A stretch of DNA of 64,000 nucleotides from NCBI GenBank assembly GCA_963755915.1, contig CAVWLP010000002.1, positions 992,001 to 1,056,000 of the forward strand, written 5' to 3'. The stretch's first letter is position 1; each line of letters begins with the position of its first letter. Shown here piece after piece: positions 31,116 through 64,000 of this stretch. The notes under the pieces were generated by a model. That model was not told where the DNA came from, searched no databases, and was given only the letters and a program-made list of their open reading frames with translations. Origin of the DNA: an uncultured Phycisphaerales bacterium. GTDB lineage: Bacteria; Planctomycetota; Phycisphaerae; Tepidisphaerales; Tepidisphaeraceae. Both the position numbers and the translations under genes were made by a program.

Positions 31116-32783
31116 ATGCTTCTGCCGATACTAGCGGCTCTCTGCGTGACGGCCATTTACGCCGCGGGATCGTGGTCAAATCAATTCGTCTACGACGACC
31201 ACGAAGTCATCGAAAACCAGTTCCCCATCCGCCACTTCAGCGACCTTCGCGCGATTTTCACCGAGCCCCACTATTTGAATTTTCCATACTATCGACCCCT
31301 GACTCGGCTCAGCTTCGCCGTGCAGGTGAATGCCAATGCCGGCCCGCGCGGGTTTCACTTGCTGAATGCAGTGCTGGCCGGCGCGGTTTTACTCGCCGCC
31401 TGCGCGCTGCTGCGGCGCGACGCGCTGGGGCTAGGCACCGGCGCCGCCCTGATCGCCGCCACATGGTTCGCCCTGCATCCGGCAGTCTCCGAATGCGTAT
31501 ATCCCGCCGCCTCCGGCAGGGAAACCCTCCTTCCCGCCCTTCTGATTCTCCTCGCAACCTGGGCCTACCTGGGCCGCGGCGCCGCCTGGTTTTTGGCGGC
31601 GATGATTTTCTTTGCCGCCGCCCTCCTCTCCAAAGAACAGGCAGCAGTTTTGCCCGGCATCTTTCTTCTCGCCGATTTTGCAGGTTTGACGCAGCGGCCA
31701 AGCAAACCAGCACGCTGGATCATCCGCTATCTCCCCATCGCCGCGATCCTGGGGTGCTATTTCCTCGTCCGGCAATTGGTGATCGGCAGCGGGAGCGTTC
31801 ACCTGACGTTGTTTGATCATCCCCTCGAACCCCTGAAATCGATCCTCTACGGCATCCAAACCGCCGTCATCCCCTTCATGGCCCTGCGTTACGAGCCGCC
31901 GTTTGACGTCTGGTTTGACTGGCGAATGAGCGTCGTCGCATGCCTTGTCGTTGGTCTGCTCATCGCTGGAGTAATCGCCGGAGGCAAACGCGCCCGGCTC
32001 ATCGGAATTTTCTGGCTCGGATGGTTTCTCCTGCTCCAGTTGCCCACGGCACACATCGTCACCCAGGAGGCCGGCTATTCCGAGCGATACGCCGCCCTGG
32101 CGATCCTCGCCCTCCCCGCCCTGGCGGGAATGCTTCTCTCCGCAGCCAACGGCGCGAGGCTGCGGCGCGCCGCCGGAATTGCCGCCTGCACGTGGATCGC
32201 CATCGAGGCGTGCGTCACTTTCTATCGCGGTGCCTATTACACTGACGATGCGTCGTTTTCCATCCAGTGGCGAAACACCAATCCCGACGCCGCCGGCCCG
32301 CATGACGGGCTGGGTCGTGTCGCCCAGCAGCGCTTGCAGTGGGAGACGGCGATCCAGGAATATCAGGCGGCTCTTTCGATCGAACCCAATGATTCAACCG
32401 CGCGAAACAATCTCGCCAATGTCTACTCCATCACCGGAGATTTCGCAGGCGCCACGCAGCAATATGAATGGCTCCTGAACCACAACAGCGTCGGCGCCGA
32501 CCCCGTGGCCGTGATGACCAATTACGCCCAGCTCCTCGCCCAGCAGGCCTTCGACCGGCACGACGCCGCGATGCGCGACAAAGCCCACGGCCTGCTCAAC
32601 GCGGCCCTGCAGCTTCGCCCCGATTATGCCCAGGCGCATCTGATTCTGGGCGAATGGAACCTGGCCTTCGGCTCACGCGAAGCCGCGATCCGGCAATTGC
32701 AAATTGCCCTGGAATTGAGGCCGGGATGGAAAGAAGCCGAAAGATTGCTGCGGGCGGCGGAGCAGTCAGACAGCTCAAAATAG
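31116..32783 (+). CDS. TMTC-like membrane protein (GT-C fold) with C-terminal TPRs
   Basis: FVYDDHEVIEN, YYRPL, FHLLN, FALHP..E, ALLSKEQA, SERY, followed by TPRs. Confidence 0.82.
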   Translation: MLLPILAALCVTAIYAAGSWSNQFVYDDHEVIENQFPIRHFSDLRAIFTEPHYLNFPYYRPLTRLSFAVQVNANAGPRGFHLLNAVLAGAVLLAACALLRRDALGLGTGAALIAATWFALHPAVSECVYPAASGRETLLPALLILLATWAYLGRGAAWFLAAMIFFAAALLSKEQAAVLPGIFLLADFAGLTQRPSKPARWIIRYLPIAAILGCYFLVRQLVIGSGSVHLTLFDHPLEPLKSILYGIQTAVIPFMALRYEPPFDVWFDWRMSVVACLVVGLLIAGVIAGGKRARLIGIFWLGWFLLLQLPTAHIVTQEAGYSERYAALAILALPALAGMLLSAANGARLRRAAGIAACTWIAIEACVTFYRGAYYTDDASFSIQWRNTNPDAAGPHDGLGRVAQQRLQWETAIQEYQAALSIEPNDSTARNNLANVYSITGDFAGATQQYEWLLNHNSVGADPVAVMTNYAQLLAQQAFDRHDAAMRDKAHGLLNAALQLRPDYAQAHLILGEWNLAFGSREAAIRQLQIALELRPGWKEAERLLRAAEQSDSSK

Positions 32784-32792
32784 CGACTCCAG

Positions 32793-32920
32793 CCAAACAC
32801 CCCAAGGCAGCCCCGGACGTCACCGGGGCAGCCGTGTGCTCGCGCAGCGGAACCGCGTGTTATATACGAGTGACTGCCTCTTCTCGTCACTAAAACCGTA
32901 ACCGAAAATACGCTTTCTTC
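32793..32920 (+). repeat. Repeat family C, copy 2 (empty)
   Basis: Aligns with 1171-1295. Intact site ccgcgtgttatatacgag at 32853-32870. Confidence 0.9.
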
Positions 32921-33017
32921 TCTTTCGGCCCCGAATAACGCCGTTCCCTAAATCCAGATGGTCGGTCACACCCACAGCCTGCGAGCGCGACAAGAGAGAG
33001 TAATACCTGCGGCTTCC

Positions 33018-59932: not shown

Positions 59933-60435
59933 AAACCTCGACGTTGCGTATATTGTGAACATATTAGCAGCTTTTTGCACTGTCGCGAGCATACCCCAAC
60001 ATTTTCTAAGGAATATTCCCCCCAACTTATTGCCGGAAAACACGTTATCGGCTGTTAATCCCCCGAATCCGGGTTACTGCCCGACTCGCGTTCTGATACT
60101 TTTGCCGTTCGTGAGGTCTCTACGTTTTTTGCCGCTCGCCTTCCTCGTCGGACGAGAGGGTTTCGTCTTCTTCCTCCCGTTCCTTCTGGCCTGCATTTTC
60201 ATTCATTTAGTAGTTCGCGCCGCCCGGGGTTGATCGAAACCTCAGCCAAATCAGCAGCCAAAATTCTCGAACTTCTCCCCCGACTTTCTTCCCAACACCT
60301 CACAGCCGCCCCGAACGTCACCGGGGCAGCCATGTGTTATCGCGGCGGAACCGCGTTTTATAATCGCATGAAAGGCCATCTCCCTGCCGGAAGTTAACAT
60401 TCCGGTTTTGGTGTCATTCACACAAGGAGATAGCC

Positions 60436-61635
60436 ATGAAGTTATACGACAAGGTAGTTCAGGTAGGGCTGGACGTCCATCGGAAGTTCTCGTCCGCCAG
60501 TCTGCGCGACGCTTCCGGGAAGGTCATTGCTCGCGAACGCCTGGATCACCTGGATCGCCAAAAGCTTCGAGAGCGAATCGCTCAGTGGCCGCGAGGCACG
60601 CCGGTGATCCTGGAAGCGACATTTGGCTGGGGATGGCTCAGCGATGAGTTGCAGATTTTGAACATGCAGCCCCACCTGGCCTCGAGCCGCAAAGTGGCGG
60701 CATGGCGGGAAGGACGCGGGATCGCCAAGAGCAACAAGGTCGATGCCGACCTGCTCAGTGAACTCTGGAACGAAAAACCGATATTTAAGCGAGGCATCAT
60801 GAAGCGCTGGTGGGAAGTCTGGCTGGCCCCACGCGAGATTCGTGATCAGCGGGAGCTGCTGCGCCATCGGATGACCCTCGTTCAGGCTCAAACGCAGTTG
60901 AAAAATCGCATTCACGCGACGCTGCACCGCCATGGAATCGTCAGCGAGCTCACCGACCTCTTCGGTGTGCAGGGCCGGCGTTTCCTGTCGCTGCTCACCG
61001 AGGACAAGACCCTGAGCCTCTCAGGACGCCAGACGCTCAAGGAAGATCTCATGCTGCTGGATTCTCTGCGTCGCCTGATCGCACGGGCCACCCGCCGGTT
61101 CCGCGCGACCATGAAACGATCGGAGATCGGCCAGCGCCTGATGACCGTGCCGGGCATCTCCACCGTGCTGGGATATACGCTGGTCGCCGAGATCGGCCGA
61201 ATCGATCGTTTCTCCTCCAGTCGATGCCTGCTCCAATACAGCCTGCTGGCGCCGCAGGCCGACGACAGCGGAGAAGATCGCGATGCCAAGCCCATCGGCC
61301 GCCGACTTGGTCACGCCGGTCGCACTACCCTTCAGTGGGCCTTTATTCAGGCCGCCCACTCGGCAGTGCAAAGGGACGCTTTTTTGCGAGAACTTTTCAA
61401 TCGCCGTACCAACAACGGCAAACAGGACCGCGGTCGCGGCTACATCACCGTCGCCAACCGCATATGTCGGATCGTCTATTCAATGTGGAACAACAACCAG
61501 GATTATCAGGAGGTGCCGCCCCCAAGACCGGGAAGCAAAAGACATAAGGAACTGATCTCGTCCGGAAGTGGGCCAGCCCTGGCTCGAATTGGCCATGAGC
61601 CCGAAGCAATTCAGGCTCGAGAGGCCACGTTATAA
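60436..61635 (+). CDS. IS110-family DEDD transposase/recombinase
   Basis: VGLDVH, ILEAT, KSNKVDA, LRHRMTLV...KNRIH, LMTVPGI, AEIG.IDRF, LAP....SG. AAGGAG RBS. Confidence 0.95.
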   Translation: MKLYDKVVQVGLDVHRKFSSASLRDASGKVIARERLDHLDRQKLRERIAQWPRGTPVILEATFGWGWLSDELQILNMQPHLASSRKVAAWREGRGIAKSNKVDADLLSELWNEKPIFKRGIMKRWWEVWLAPREIRDQRELLRHRMTLVQAQTQLKNRIHATLHRHGIVSELTDLFGVQGRRFLSLLTEDKTLSLSGRQTLKEDLMLLDSLRRLIARATRRFRATMKRSEIGQRLMTVPGISTVLGYTLVAEIGRIDRFSSSRCLLQYSLLAPQADDSGEDRDAKPIGRRLGHAGRTTLQWAFIQAAHSAVQRDAFLRELFNRRTNNGKQDRGRGYITVANRICRIVYSMWNNNQDYQEVPPPRPGSKRHKELISSGSGPALARIGHEPEAIQAREATL

Positions 61636-61750
61636 TTGGGCCGCCCGCGCCGGATGAGATCATGTGCCGCTCGGCCAAACGCTGTTGATCGGGCCCGGCC
61701 AGCACGAATGGATATATGGACCGCCGAGAGGCCAGTCACCAGCCGGCAGA
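61570..61750 (+). ncRNA. Predicted bridge/seek RNA of the IS1111-type element
   Basis: Two stem-internal loop-stem units carrying segments that match the target flanks (61581-61589, 61630-61634) and the circle junction (61654-61660, 61708-61714). Confidence 0.75.
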
Positions 61751-61934
61751 CGGACGAAGAGGTCTCGGAATGAAAAAGAAGTAACCGCTTTTCGCGAGGA
61801 GAATTTTTTTGTTGATCGGGGAAGCCTTTCATGGATATTCGAGCCCCCGCCTCTTCTCGTCACCCAGACCGTAACCGAAAATACTCTTCCTTCTTCTCGA
61901 TCTAAATGTCTGACGATCTCGCCCGCCTATTCAT

Positions 61935-64000
61935 TTACGCAATCTTCTGCCGCGTCTCCCGCCGCTCTTCACCCAGCTTCGGCCCCAAATACTCCCCCGT
62001 ATAACTCCCTCTCACCTGCGCCACCTCTTCCGGCGTCCCCGCCGCCACCACTCGCCCGCCCCCCTCGCCCCCTTCCGGACCCATATCAATAATCCAATCC
62101 GCGCACTTAATCACATCCAAATTATGCTCGATCACCAGCACCGTATTCCCCAAATCCGCCAGCCGATTCAGCACGTTCAAAAGATTATTGAATATCCGCA
62201 AAATGCAACCCCGTCGTCGGCTCATCCAGCACATAAAGCGTATGCCCCGTCGCCGATTTCCCCAGCTCCGTCGCCAGCTTCACCCGCTGCGCCTCCCCGC
62301 CGGATAAGTTGCGTGCTCGGCTGCCCCAGCTTCACATAACTGAGCCCCACATCATTCAGTGCCTTCAGCAAGCTGCGCAATCCGCGGAAAATTCTCAAAG
62401 AAAACCAGCGCCTCCTCCACCGTCATGCTCAGCACATCCGCGATGTTCTTCCCCCGGTAATGAATCTCCAGCGTCTCCGCGTTGTACCGCGTCCCATGGC
62501 ACACTTCGCAATCCACATAAACATCCGGCAAAAAATGCATCTCGATGCACTTGTTCCCCTGCCCCTGGCAGGCTTCGCACCGCCCACCCTTCACGTTAAA
62601 GCTGAACCGCCCCGCTTCATACCCCCGAATCTTCGCTTCCCGCGTCTTCGCAAAAACCTTGCGAATATCGTCGAACACGCCGGTATACGTCGCCGGATTC
62701 GATCGCGGCGTCCGCCCGATCGGGCTCTGATCAATCTCAATCACCTTGTCGATCTTATTGACCCCATTCACCGCCTTATGCACCCCCGCCTTCACCTTCG
62801 AAGCATAAAGCTTCCGCTTAAGCACCGGCAAAAGCGTCTGATTCACCAGCGTCGATTTCCCCGACCCGCTCACCCCCGTCACGCAAACCAGCCCCCCCAG
62901 CGGAATCCGCACGTCGATATCCTTGAGATTGTTCTGCCGGCACCCCCGCAGCTCCAGCGCATTCTTATCCGGATTCACCGGCCGCCGCGCCTGCGGCGTC
63001 ACGATCGCATATTCCCCCGTCAGATATTTAATCGTCGTACTATGCGTATTCTCCAAAACATCCGGCATCGGCCCCTGCGCACACCACCTGCCCCCCATGC
63101 GCCCCGCCGCCGGCCCGATATCGATCAGATAATCCGCCGCCCGGATGCACTCCTCATCATGCTCCACCATCATGACCGTATTCCCGATATCCTGCAGCCG
63201 TCTCAGTGTCCGAATCAGCCGCGTGTTATCGCGCTGATGCAGCCCGATCGTCGGCTCATCGAGCACATAACACACCCCACCAGCCCGCTCCCCACCTGCG
63301 TCGCCAGCCGGATGCGCTGCGCCTCGCCGCCAGAAAGCGTCGCCGTCTTTCGATCCAGCGTCAGATAGCCCAGCCCCACATCCACCATGAACCCCAGCCG
63401 CGACGAAATCTCCCGCACGATCGGCTCCGCGATCGCCGCCCCTTCTTCGCTCAAGCGCAGATTCTCAAAAAACCGCTTCGCCGTCTCGACGGTCAAACTC
63501 GAAACATCATGAATGCTATACCCCGGCAGCTTAATCCCCTCCGCCCCCGGCAGCGGCGCCGCCACCGGCCCAGGCGTATCACTGTGCAACCGCACCGCCA
63601 GCGCTTCCTTCTTCAGCCTCGTCCCCCCGCAAACCTCGCACGGCTGCTCTGACATATATTGATGCAGCCGCGTCTTCACAAACTCGCTCTCGGTATTATC
63701 AAACCGCCTCTGCAAATTCGGCAGCACCCCCTCAAACCACGTCCCCGTCCCTCCATCCCCGCGCTTCTCCGTCCCCTCCATCAAAATCTGCTGAACCTTC
63801 TTCGGAATGTCCTTGAACGGCTGCGTATACGAAATCCCAAAATCCCGGCAAAATTGCCGCAGCACCCGGCTGTAAAAAATATTCATCCGCTTGCCGTTTT
63901 TCCGCCACGCCTCAATCGCCCCGTTCTCCAGCGACAGCGACTGGATCGGGAACGATCAGCTCCGGATCAAACTCGAACTTCGTCCCCAGCCCATGACACG
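61935..64000 (-). CDS. uvrA: Excinuclease ABC subunit A, 3' part, with several frameshifts
   Basis: [79 protein letters not shown]. Confidence 0.95.

What the first reader, a model, noticed from the sequence alone, without database searches (positions are those of the whole stretch)
61570..61750. Bridge/seek RNA with all four guide segments readable in an IS1111-type element
Seen in sequence, target loop: outer stem gggccagccc (61570-79)/gggccgccc (61638-46) and inner stem tggcc..gagcc/ggctc..ggcca enclose ggctcgaat (61581-89) and cgttata (61628-34). The first is the exact reverse complement of the right flank attcgagcc (61837-45, 9/9). The last 5 nt of the second equal the left flank plus core (ttata, 60358-62). 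Donor loop: outer gccgg (61649)/ccggc (61743) and inner gtgc/gcac enclose atgagat (61654-60), a 6/7 match to the reverse complement of the left end atcgcat, and atggata (61708-14), identical to the right end plus core (61831-37). Established: IS110/IS1111 recombinases are guided by a non-coding RNA with target- and donor-binding loops, encoded 3' of the gene in IS1111 members. Inference: this is a new programmable recombinase with an ATA core. Its target loop overlaps the last ~20 codons of the transposase ORF.
Basis: partly seen in the sequence, partly recalled or inferred. Interest (0 to 1): 0.9.

Follow-up and report, generated by a model that had tools for sequence, protein, structure and literature searches.

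The report
Bridge RNA in an IS1111-type element
This is a real, apparently active insertion sequence whose 3' end encodes a guide RNA that matches its own ends and its insertion site; it is a well-supported new example of the RNA-guided IS110/IS1111 recombinases described in 2024, not a new kind of system.

Summary
All four segments sit at the stated coordinates. The element is 1475 bp (60363-61837) and has four identical copies in this genome. Three unoccupied sites define the insertion point. The ORF (60436-61635) is an IS110-family DEDD transposase, flanked by 10-bp subterminal inverted repeats.

Sixteen elements from related genomes share an RNA scaffold of about 200 nt (61557-61758) with variable internal loops.
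- The 5' strand of the first loop follows each element's right flank: own mean 8.4 nt, other elements 4.3 nt, 0 of 20000 permutations as good.
- The 3' strand follows the left flank: 4.2 vs 2.8 nt, 4 of 20000.
- Stems carry compensatory changes.
- The donor 3' guide changes together with the right end.

Corrections. The clade-wide core is TA; ATA is a local extension. The left-flank and left-end matches are not above chance in this window alone. The donor 5' guide is paired in a nearly isoenergetic alternative fold.

Verdict: a new member of a known kind. RNA expression, transposase binding and programmability are untested.

The parts
60341..60362 (+). Left half of the target. It holds a terminator-like hairpin (CGCGGCGGAACCGCG), a T-run, and the core TA at 60361-62 (ATA at 60360-62).
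   Evidence: Empty sites read ...GGAACCGCGTTTTATA|TTCGAGCC. The hairpin was found.
60363..61837 (+). The insertion sequence, 1475 bp, counted with one copy of the core at its right end.
   Evidence: Four copies are identical at 1475 of 1475 positions in the genome. Boundaries come from comparing occupied and empty sites.
60363..60376 (+). Left end: 4-nt extension ATCG (60363-66) and left subterminal inverted repeat CATGAAAGGC (60367-76).
   Evidence: An exact left repeat was found in 17 of 18 loci examined; L019 has no upstream sequence.
60436..61635 (+). Transposase ORF, 399 aa. It has D13, E60, D103/D105 and S278-G279 in LLAPQADDSG. The last 26 codons overlap the RNA.
   Evidence: The frame of the tail differs among homologues.
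61557..61758 (+). Structured core of the bridge/seek RNA, about 202 nt.
   Evidence: The scaffold is conserved in 16 elements.
61558..61564 (+). 5' strand of closing stem P1. It pairs with 61751-57. In the alternative fold P0, 61557-65 pairs with 61650-58 instead.
61569..61579 (+). Outer stem of the target loop, 5' strand. It pairs with 61638-47.
   Evidence: All cells are paired in 16 sequences, and 3 pairs have double changes.
61581..61589 (+). Target guide on the 5' side of the loop. It is complementary to the top strand of the right flank plus the core A (61837-45).
   Evidence: 9 of 9 here. Own matches are 7-10 nt in 12 of 13 elements; permutation 0 of 20000.
61590..61627 (+). Inner stem of the target loop (61590-94 with 61623-27) and its variable hairpin.
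   Evidence: The pair at columns 38/90 is C-G in 6 and U-A in 6 sequences.
61628..61634 (+). Target guide on the 3' side of the loop. It has the same sense as the left flank plus core, so it would pair with the bottom strand. The matching part is 61630-34.
   Evidence: 5 nt here. Anchored test: own 4.21 vs 2.84 nt, 4 of 20000.
61648..61653 (+). Outer stem of the donor loop, 5' strand. It pairs with 61743-48.
   Evidence: The pair at columns 118/264 is A-U in 10 and G-C in 4 sequences.
61654..61660 (+). Donor guide on the 5' side. It is complementary at 6 of 7 positions to the top strand of the left end (60363-69).
   Evidence: L028 shows two co-varying positions. The segment is sequestered in the P0 fold.
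61663..61706 (+). Inner stem of the donor loop (61663-67 with 61702-06) and its variable hairpin.
   Evidence: Double changes occur at two pairs.
61708..61714 (+). Donor guide on the 3' side. It is identical to the right end plus core (61831-37).
   Evidence: 7 of 7 in 11 of 13 elements. G to A in both guide and end in L030 and L031.
61718..61738 (+). Small hairpin in the 3' strand of the donor loop.
   Evidence: GGGC/GCCC exchanges with GGAC/GUCC.
61804..61817 (+). T-run (61804-10) and the -35-like hexamer TTGATC (61812-17). With 16 nt of spacer, GATA (61834-37) plus AT (60363-64) would form GATAAT in the circle.
   Evidence: Read. TTGAC is conserved in homologues. Junction promoters are described in PMC11208160. 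This is an inference.
61824..61837 (+). Right subterminal inverted repeat GCCTTTCATG (61824-33) and the extension GATA (61834-37).
   Evidence: An exact right repeat was found in 14 of 18 loci; the other four are cut off or interrupted.
61838..61849 (+). Right half of the target (TTCGAGCCCCCG).

Best explanation
Window 60363-61837 is an intact, probably active IS1111-type insertion sequence in a Tepidisphaeraceae-like (Planctomycetota) genome. Its 3' part (about 61557-61758) encodes a bridge RNA (long seekRNA).

Structure proposed: a closing stem (P1) carries two arms.
- The first arm is a hairpin whose internal loop holds the two target guides. [quoted passage not shown] - The second arm holds the two donor guides in the same geometry. 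[quoted passage not shown] It exchanges strands at the TA core (..GCGTTTTA-TA-TTCGAGCC..).

What is shown: the boundaries, copies and empty sites; the protein family; the conserved scaffold; the stem co-variation; the guide-to-flank co-variation.

What is inferred from the characterised relatives (ISEc11, IS621): the RNA is made, binds the transposase and is required; it is co-transcribed with tnp from a promoter formed at the circle junction; the core is exactly TA.
For: - Copies and sites: four identical copies and three empty sites.
- Protein family: Pfam PF01548 and PF02371; NF033542 'IS110 family RNA-guided transposase' at 161.5 bits against a cut-off of 140; 28% identity over 362 aa to an IS4321-family transposase, E 1e-20.
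- Inverted repeats: the 10-bp subterminal repeats are exact in every locus where that end is present.
- Scaffold: conserved in 16 elements with transposase identity from 83% down to 44%.
- Structure: 35 pairs, 91.9% of cells paired against 29.5-43.6% when the partner is slid by 1-3 columns. 11 pairs carry double changes; 0 of 500 shuffles reach this.
- 5' target guide against the right flank: own runs are 9, 8, 9, 9, 8, 8, 7, 9, 9, 9, 10, 9 and 5 nt. The mean is 8.38 against 4.32 for other elements; 0 of 20000 permutations as good.
- Natural retargeting: the 83% relative L010 has CGTAT where the window has CGAAT, and it sits at TACGAG instead of TTCGAG in the same repeat family.
- 3' target guide against the left flank, anchored at the core: 4.21 vs 2.84 nt, 4 of 20000. 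With G-U wobble: 5.07 vs 3.43 nt, 0 of 20000.
- Donor 3' guide: equals the right end in 11 of 13 elements. It changes with the end in L030 and L031.
- Guide lengths and order: the long 5'-side and short 3'-side guide lengths match those reported for IS621. The order, top-strand match first, is the one reported for IS1111 elements.
- ORF tail: read in three frames among homologues.
Against: - No RNA evidence for this organism. The only RNA-library signal is assembled contigs of a 90-95% relative in one metatranscriptome, and DNA carry-over is not excluded.
- No promoter-like site was found in the linear element.
- The donor 5' guide is fully paired in the window's MFE fold. 7 of 16 homologues fold that way. 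Its pairing partner P0 is as well paired as P1 (89.6% vs 84.8% of cells).
- The base of the donor 5' guide opposite left-end position 4 does not follow that position's variation.
- The left-flank match is only 5 nt here. One unoccupied repeat (C2:4406629) matches both target guides at least as well as the occupied sites.
- For ISEc11 a short RNA with the target loop alone was sufficient (PMC11187229 section 10). A role for the donor arm in IS1111-type elements is therefore not established experimentally.
- The homologues are kin, so the permutation figures overstate independence.
- Rfam 15 has no matching family.
Confidence: 0.85

Rival explanations
1. Only the first arm is functional. The active species would be a short seekRNA, the target hairpin closed by stem P0 (61557-65 with 61650-58, about 100 nt). 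The second arm would be a precursor or structural part. The element's ends would be recognised by the protein through the subterminal inverted repeats, not by RNA.
For: - P0 forms in the MFE fold of the window and of 7 of 16 homologues, and 89.6% of its cells are paired.
- For ISEc11 the 82-nt RNA sufficed and was even more efficient than the long form (PMC11187229 section 10).
- The ends are almost invariant in this clade, so co-variation can say little.
- The window's left-end and right-end matches are weak against shuffles: 2426 of 3000 and 177 of 3000.
Against: - The donor 3' guide changes G to A together with the right end in L030 and L031 (these two may share one event), and partly in L028.
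- Two positions of the donor 5' guide follow the altered left end of L028.
- The outer donor stem shows an A-U to G-C exchange, 10 to 4 sequences. It excludes P0.
- P1 shows compensatory changes in L032, L019 and L028 where P0 does not.
- The donor guides sit at the same distance from their inner stem as the target guides do from theirs.
Confidence: 0.2
2. The conservation reflects DNA-level or protein-level constraint and no RNA is involved. It would come from transposase-binding sites near the right end or from a coding C-terminal tail.
For: - The ORF runs through 61557-61635.
- No transcript has been shown.
- There is no Rfam match.
Against: - The tail is read in three frames among homologues while the nucleotides are kept.
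- Stems keep pairing through double changes.
- The least conserved parts are exactly the loop strands, and these follow each element's flanks. A fixed protein-binding site would not do this.
Confidence: 0.03
3. The four matches are chance resemblances in a G+C-rich 3' region.
For: Two of the four matches are within chance in this window alone.
Against: The same loop positions match different flanks in 12 of 13 other elements; 0 of 20000 permutations do as well.
Confidence: 0.01

Closest known systems
IS1111-family elements with seekRNA (ISEc11, ISPa11, ISKpn4; Siddiquee et al. 2024, PMC11187229; sections 6, 9, 10, 13 and 14 read)
   Same: - DEDD transposase.
- Subterminal inverted repeats with short terminal extensions.
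- Guide RNA encoded downstream of tnp.
- Top-strand match 5' of the bottom-strand match.
- Insertion in one orientation into a repeated sequence.
- Natural retargeting between close relatives by exchange of loop sequence.
- A junction promoter is expected.
   Different: - The ORF is 399 aa, against the 330-350 aa quoted for the family, and it runs 26 codons into the RNA.
- Transposase identity to an IS4321-family member is only 28%.
- The host is a planctomycete.
- The target is a ~130-nt repeat of unknown function.
- No experimental data exist for this element.
IS621 bridge RNA (IS110 group; Durrant et al. 2024, PMC11208160, section 6 and passages read; PDB 8WT6)
   Same: - Two internal loops, one for the target and one for the donor.
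- Each loop has a long guide (8-9 nt) on its 5' side and a shorter one (4-7 nt) on its 3' side. The two pair with opposite DNA strands around a short core.
- The circular form is expected to build a promoter.
   Different: - The RNA lies at the right end, not the left.
- Strand assignment is reversed: here the 5' side pairs with the top strand.
- The core is TA rather than CT (the IS621 core is recalled, not seen in a call).
- The subterminal repeats are long.
- The protein matches IS621 only over the C-terminal domain, E 6.8e-4.
- A closing stem joins the 5' and 3' ends instead of a separate 5' stem-loop.
Predicted IS1111 bridge RNAs in Durrant et al. 2024 (Fig. 6 and Extended Data Fig. 10; legends and text only seen)
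   Same: A bridge RNA was predicted in the right end of 93.0% of ISfinder IS1111 elements, with loops complementary to target, donor and core.
   Different: Those structures are in figures and supplementary tables that I could not see. I cannot say how close this scaffold is to any of them.

Membership tests
IS110 family (DEDD RNA-guided transposases) | [quoted passage not shown] | tested here: met
   PF01548 at E 7.4e-9 (residues 10-165). PF02371 at E 1.6e-13 (residues 233-318). Both are above their cut-offs.
IS110 family (DEDD RNA-guided transposases) | Score above NCBIfam's curated cut-off for NF033542 | tested here: met
   161.5 bits against a cut-off of 140, covering profile positions 2-342 of 343.
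IS110 family (DEDD RNA-guided transposases) | Catalytic D-E-D-D residues and the conserved Ser/Thr-Gly | tested here: inconclusive
   D13, E60 and D103 align with D, E and D of an IS4321-family protein. S278-G279 aligns with its T-G. The fourth acidic residue (D105?) was not assigned against a solved structure.
IS1111 subgroup | Subterminal inverted repeats of 7-17 bp with short terminal extensions | tested here: met
   CATGAAAGGC (60367-76) and GCCTTTCATG (61824-33), each 4 nt from its end. They are exact in all relatives where that end is present.
IS1111 subgroup | Long non-coding region, or the guide RNA, downstream of tnp; short left end | tested here: met
   The left end is 73 nt up to the ATG. 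The RNA lies at 61557-61758, partly overlapping the ORF end.
IS1111 subgroup | The segment complementary to the top strand lies 5' of the segment complementary to the bottom strand | tested here: met
   61581-89 is complementary to the top strand. 61630-34 is identical to the top strand, so it is complementary to the bottom strand. The criterion comes from PMC11187229 section 9.
IS1111 subgroup | Transposase related over its full length to IS1111-group transposases | tested here: met
   28% identity over residues 5-357 to an IS4321-family transposase, E 1e-20. IS621 matches only at residues 233-349. No tree with reference sequences was built.
IS1111 subgroup | Transposase length 330-350 aa and the motif GL-P----S(t)G | tested here: not met
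   The ORF is 399 aa, and similarity to relatives ends near residue 370. The motif reads LLAPQADDSG, with L in place of the first G.
Bridge RNA / long seekRNA | Two stem-loops with internal loops, supported by co-variation | tested here: met
   35 pairs, 91.9% of cells paired, 11 pairs with double changes. A competing stem P0 exists.
Bridge RNA / long seekRNA | Target-loop strands co-vary with the left and right target flanks | tested here: met
   Right flank: 8.38 vs 4.32 nt, 0 of 20000. Left flank: 4.21 vs 2.84 nt, 4 of 20000.
Bridge RNA / long seekRNA | Donor-loop strands complementary to the element's ends and co-varying with them | tested here: inconclusive
   The 3' guide is 7 of 7 in 11 of 13 elements and changes with the end in L030 and L031. 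The 5' guide is 5-6 of 7, with co-variation only in L028. The ends hardly vary in this clade.
Bridge RNA / long seekRNA | The RNA is transcribed, binds the recombinase and is required for recombination | not testable with these tools
   Only RNA-library contigs of a 90-95% relative cover 61443-61886. This is a weak hint, not proof.
Rfam families | Match to a curated covariance model | tested here: not met
   The only hit is a chance-level match on the other strand (Ysr276, 13.4 bits against a gathering score of 100).

The most novel reading that the evidence does not exclude
The RNA may be a two-state switch. In one state the 5' strand (61557-65) pairs with the donor 5' guide. This gives a compact hairpin, like a short seekRNA, that can read the target but not the donor. 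In the other state the same 5' strand pairs with the 3' tail (P1), the outer donor stem forms, and both donor guides are exposed.

The 5' strand is also the end of the transposase reading frame. Ribosomes finishing tnp would therefore decide which state forms, coupling translation in cis to assembly of a donor-competent complex.

The two states differ by 2 kcal/mol in the window. Both are kept across the clade.
Probability: 0.12. Interest if true: 0.6.

Novelty: new member of a known kind. Interest (0 to 1): 0.35.

Why it matters
- It adds a well-documented natural example of RNA-guided recombination from a phylum (Planctomycetota) far from the enterobacterial and pseudomonad model elements.
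- The evidence is unusually clean: four identical copies, three empty sites, and a series of relatives whose guides have been naturally retargeted to different sites.
- That series is ready material for working out the pairing rules of IS1111-type RNAs: a 9-nt plus 5-7-nt target guide, a TA core and wobble tolerance. These are less studied than IS621.
- It is also a candidate orthologue for recombinase engineering.
- It does not change the current picture of how these elements work.

Tried and rejected
- Rfam search of 60000-62200 and of an empty target copy: nothing above chance.
- Consensus promoter scan of the linear element: 0 sites, so no separate promoter for the RNA could be proposed.
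I did not build a shorter one. Structure was tested by pair counts on the MAFFT alignment instead. That alignment misplaces the 3' tail of L028, L014, L019 and L012, so it understates P1.
- RNAalifold on A1 recovered the target arm and the inner donor stem. It chose P0 rather than P1 and the outer donor stem.
- The search for related loci with the single protein found only 2 loci. The other relatives came from the genome search.
- Earlier notes of this scan: none for this genome.
- DNA-run contigs (X2, X4, X5) showed neither a circle junction nor an empty site at this locus. The two joints seen in X8 are other copies of the target repeat with other letters between them. A part without cover there says nothing.
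- A reading of the target repeat as an ECF-type promoter was considered by eye and dropped, because the spacing does not fit. Its function stays open.
- L017 was left out of alignment A1 and all counts because its scaffold is too diverged for my anchors. By eye its 5' guide also matches its right flank.
- L015/L022 (right end interrupted), L016 and L029 (contig ends) have no right flank and are absent from the right-flank test. L019 and L030 lack a usable left flank and are absent from the left-flank test.
Full report
**1. The observation**

- GGCTCGAAT (61581-89) is the exact reverse complement of ATTCGAGCC (61837-45).
- The last five bases of CGTTATA (61628-34) equal TTATA (60358-62).
- ATGAGAT (61654-60) matches the reverse complement of ATCGCAT (60363-69) at 6 of 7 positions.
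- ATGGATA (61708-14) equals 61831-37.
The single-sequence MFE fold of 61550-61840 gives the first hairpin with exactly that internal loop (-111.8 kcal/mol, z -2.31, 4 of 200 shuffles fold as well).

**2. The element**

The ORF 60436-61635 (399 aa) carries Pfam PF01548 and PF02371. It scores 161.5 bits against NCBIfam NF033542, 'IS110 family RNA-guided transposase', whose cut-off is 140.

A DNA search of the window's own genome finds four full copies and two short matches.
- The four copies are identical at 1475 of 1475 positions.
- All four lie in the same orientation inside copies of one repeat.
- Three unoccupied copies read GGAACCGCGTTTTATA|TTCGAGCC (two copies) or ..TTCGAGTC (one copy).
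- The element is therefore 60363-61837, with ATA present at both junctions.

Ten-base subterminal inverted repeats lie four bases from each end: CATGAAAGGC at 60367-76 and GCCTTTCATG at 61824-33.

**3. Relatives**

Protein searches gave the following.

| Search | Genomes searched | With a match (own genome included) | Threshold |
|---|---|---|---|
| Same family | 141 | 12 | E <= 1e-30 |
| Same class (sampled) | 401 | 10 | E <= 1e-60 |
| Named Tepidisphaeraceae MAG contigs | - | 2 contigs | tblastn E <= 1e-3 |

Transposase identity runs from 83% down to 44%, with one further locus, L020, at 30% that was not analysed further. Of the 18 loci examined:
- the left inverted repeat is exact in 17 (the 18th has no upstream sequence);
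- the right one is exact in 14 (the other four are cut off by contig ends or interrupted).

**4. The RNA scaffold**

Downstream of the conserved part of the protein, all relatives share long invariant blocks. Examples are CTCGTCCGGGAACGGGCCAGCCC, TGGGCCGCCCGCACCGGA, AATGGATAG and CCGGTGCA. Short hypervariable stretches separate them.

I aligned 16 elements (A1). L017 was left out because it is too diverged for my anchors. The structure I propose for the window is:
- closing stem P1: 61558-64 with 61751-57;
- target arm: outer stem 61569-79 with 61638-47; loop strands 61580-89 and 61628-37; inner stem 61590-94 with 61623-27;
- donor arm: outer stem 61648-53 with 61743-48; 5' loop strand 61654-62; inner stem 61663-67 with 61702-06; 3' loop strand with ATGGATA at 61708-14 and a small hairpin 61718-21 with 61735-38.

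Counted on A1:
- 91.9% of 558 cells form standard pairs, against 29.5-43.6% when the 3' partners are slid by one to three columns;
- 11 of 35 pairs show a change on both sides, and 0 of 500 shuffles reach this;
- informative pairs include C-G in 6 vs U-A in 6 sequences (inner target stem), A-U in 10 vs G-C in 4 (outer donor stem), and G-C in 6 vs A-U in 5 (small hairpin).

These sequences are relatives, so the shuffle figures overstate significance. The slid controls keep relatedness.

**5. Guides against flanks**

For each element I took the loop strands from A1 and the flanks from the inverted-repeat positions.

*5' target strand against the right flank.* I compared it with the reverse complement of the last three bases of the element plus 11 bases of right flank. 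The longest exact run with an element's own flank is 9, 8, 9, 9, 8, 8, 7, 9, 9, 9, 10, 9 and 5 nt in the 13 elements that have a right flank. The mean is 8.38 against 4.32 for other elements' flanks, and 0 of 20000 re-pairings do as well.

The targets differ: TTCGAGCC, TACGAGCC, GGGTGGGC, GCCGGCGG, GGGGCGGG, GCCGGGGG, GGATGGGG, GGGTCCGC, GGCCGGG, GCGCGGGG and TGGTGCCC. Three elements share GGGTGGGC.

The closest relative (L010, 83%) differs from the window by A to T in the guide and by T to A in the flank. It sits in the TACGAG variant of the same repeat family.

*3' target strand against the left flank.* Anchored at the core, the own mean is 4.21 nt against 2.84 nt for other elements (4 of 20000). 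With G-U wobble allowed it is 5.07 against 3.43 nt (0 of 20000). The earlier unanchored test gave 40 of 20000.

A long 5'-side guide and a short 3'-side guide is the length pattern reported for IS621 (8-9 and 4-7 nt; PMC11208160 section 6). The order, top-strand match first, is the one reported for IS1111-type seekRNAs (PMC11187229 section 9).

**6. Donor guides**

The ends hardly vary in this clade, so the test is weak.
- The 3' donor strand equals the right end plus core at 7 of 7 positions in 11 of 13 elements, and at 6 of 7 in L028 and L014.
- It carries the same G to A change as the end in L030 and L031. These two elements may share one event.
- The 5' donor strand is complementary to the left end at 5-6 of 7 positions in most elements.
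- In L028, whose left end is ATGAC instead of ATCNC, two guide positions change in step.
- The base opposite left-end position 4 stays A whatever that position is.

**7. A complication**

The 5' strand CUCGUCCGG can pair with either of two partners. One is the 3' tail (P1). The other is CCGGAUGAG, which is the start of the donor arm and includes the 5' donor guide (P0).
- P0 forms in the window's MFE fold, is chosen by RNAalifold, and has 89.6% of cells paired.
- Single-sequence folds of the 16 RNAs show P0 in 7, P1 in 6 and the outer donor stem in 5.
- In the window the two states differ by 2.0 kcal/mol (-88.6 vs -86.6).
- P1 and the outer donor stem have the better co-variation: the A-U to G-C exchange above, and compensatory changes in L032, L019 and L028. 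P0 shows only one-sided changes.

I therefore take P1 plus the donor arm as the form that exposes all four guides. P0 remains a real alternative. It would give a hairpin of about 100 nt, like the short seekRNA that sufficed for ISEc11 (PMC11187229 section 10).

**8. Chance within the window alone**

I ran 3000 shuffles of 61540-61823. The number reaching the observed match was:

| Match | Shuffles reaching it (of 3000) |
|---|---|
| 9-nt right-flank match | 26 |
| 7-nt right-end match | 177 |
| left-flank run | 955 |
| left-end run | 2426 |

Their support comes from paragraphs 5 and 6.

**9. The ORF overlap**

The ORF runs 26 codons into the RNA. Among 16 relatives the conserved block CTCGTCCGG... 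is read in frame 1 in 12, frame 2 in 3 (plus the window) and frame 0 in 1. The stop falls at different places in the target arm in all but L018, whose broken reading frame stops upstream of the block. The constraint is thus on the nucleic acid, not on a peptide.

**10. Expression**

No consensus promoter lies in the linear element. In the circular form, three parts would together give a sigma-70-like promoter:
- TTGATC at 61812-17 (TTGAC in most relatives);
- 16 bases of spacer;
- GATA (61834-37) joined to AT (60363-64), which reads GATAAT.

Junction promoters are described for this family (PMC11208160 passages; PMC11187229 discussion). This is an inference from reading the sequence.

In one rhizosphere metatranscriptome (X8), assembled contigs 90-95% like the window cover 61443-61886. 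They carry G>A at 61582 and A>T at 61587, which is the guide of the L010-type relative. DNA carry-over cannot be excluded, so this is only a hint.

**11. The core**

In 13 of 14 relatives with a left flank, the flank ends in TA followed by the four-base extension. In 12 of 13 with a right end, the end reads ATA. The base before TA in the flank varies; it is mostly G. The shared core of the clade is therefore TA. The window's ATA arises because its target has an A at that place.

**12. Comparison and verdict**

This is an IS1111-type member of the IS110 family with a bridge RNA / long seekRNA. That class was described in 2024.

Departures from the published description of the subgroup:
- the ORF is longer (399 aa vs 330-350 aa);
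- the first residue of the GL-P----S(t)G motif differs;
- the ORF and the RNA overlap;
- the RNA has a closing stem and a competing stem.

None of these is a new principle. Novelty: a new member of a known kind. Interest is moderate to low, and comes mainly from the clean natural retargeting series and from a possible two-state RNA.

Noticed in passing
window 60270-60362 and 61838-61900; also about 1169-1294 and 32783-32925; genome-wide in G000: The insertion target is a conserved ~130-nt repeat. blastn gives 47 hits in the genome, 37 of them at least 100 nt long. Four copies are split by the IS. The repeat has a hypervariable stretch exactly at the insertion point, flanked by small hairpins, one of them terminator-like. 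There is no Rfam match and its function is unknown. RNA-library contigs of X8 cover unoccupied copies.
   Followed up: partly
L010 (same contig as L007), left junction: In the 83% relative, the left junction is the exact reverse complement of the right junction for 53 nt beyond the inverted repeat, including the 4-nt terminal extension. The element is thus flanked by two inverted right halves of the target. This is either a recombination product or a MAG assembly artefact.
   Followed up: partly
L002 (C2:348405-349925) and L004 (C3:899521-901024): Two of the four copies share the same left flank for more than 100 nt, beyond the repeat, with single-base differences inside the repeat, but have different right flanks. 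This suggests a duplication or a rearrangement between copies.
   Followed up: no
window 61935-63886, minus strand: The uvrA-like gene next to the element is split over at least three overlapping or out-of-frame ORFs (99, 307 and 223 aa). The cause is either frameshifts or indel errors in the assembly.
   Followed up: no
G000 C2:4406629 (outside the window): One unoccupied repeat copy reads GCCTGTTATATTCGAGCC. It matches the 3' target guide over 6 nt, compared with 5 nt at the occupied sites, and matches the 5' guide fully. It is a predicted good target that is empty.
   Followed up: no
L015 and L022 (G112, two copies): In this 50% relative the RNA scaffold is intact. The region between the RNA and the expected right end is occupied by other DNA with a long reverse-strand reading frame, possibly a nested insertion.
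   Followed up: no
window 60386-60406: A terminator-like hairpin (GCCGGAAGTTAACATTCCGGT followed by a T-run) lies in the left end, between the predicted junction promoter and the ribosome-binding site of tnp. Its 5' part (CTGCCGGAAGTTA) is kept in close relatives. It may be a leader or attenuator.
   Followed up: no
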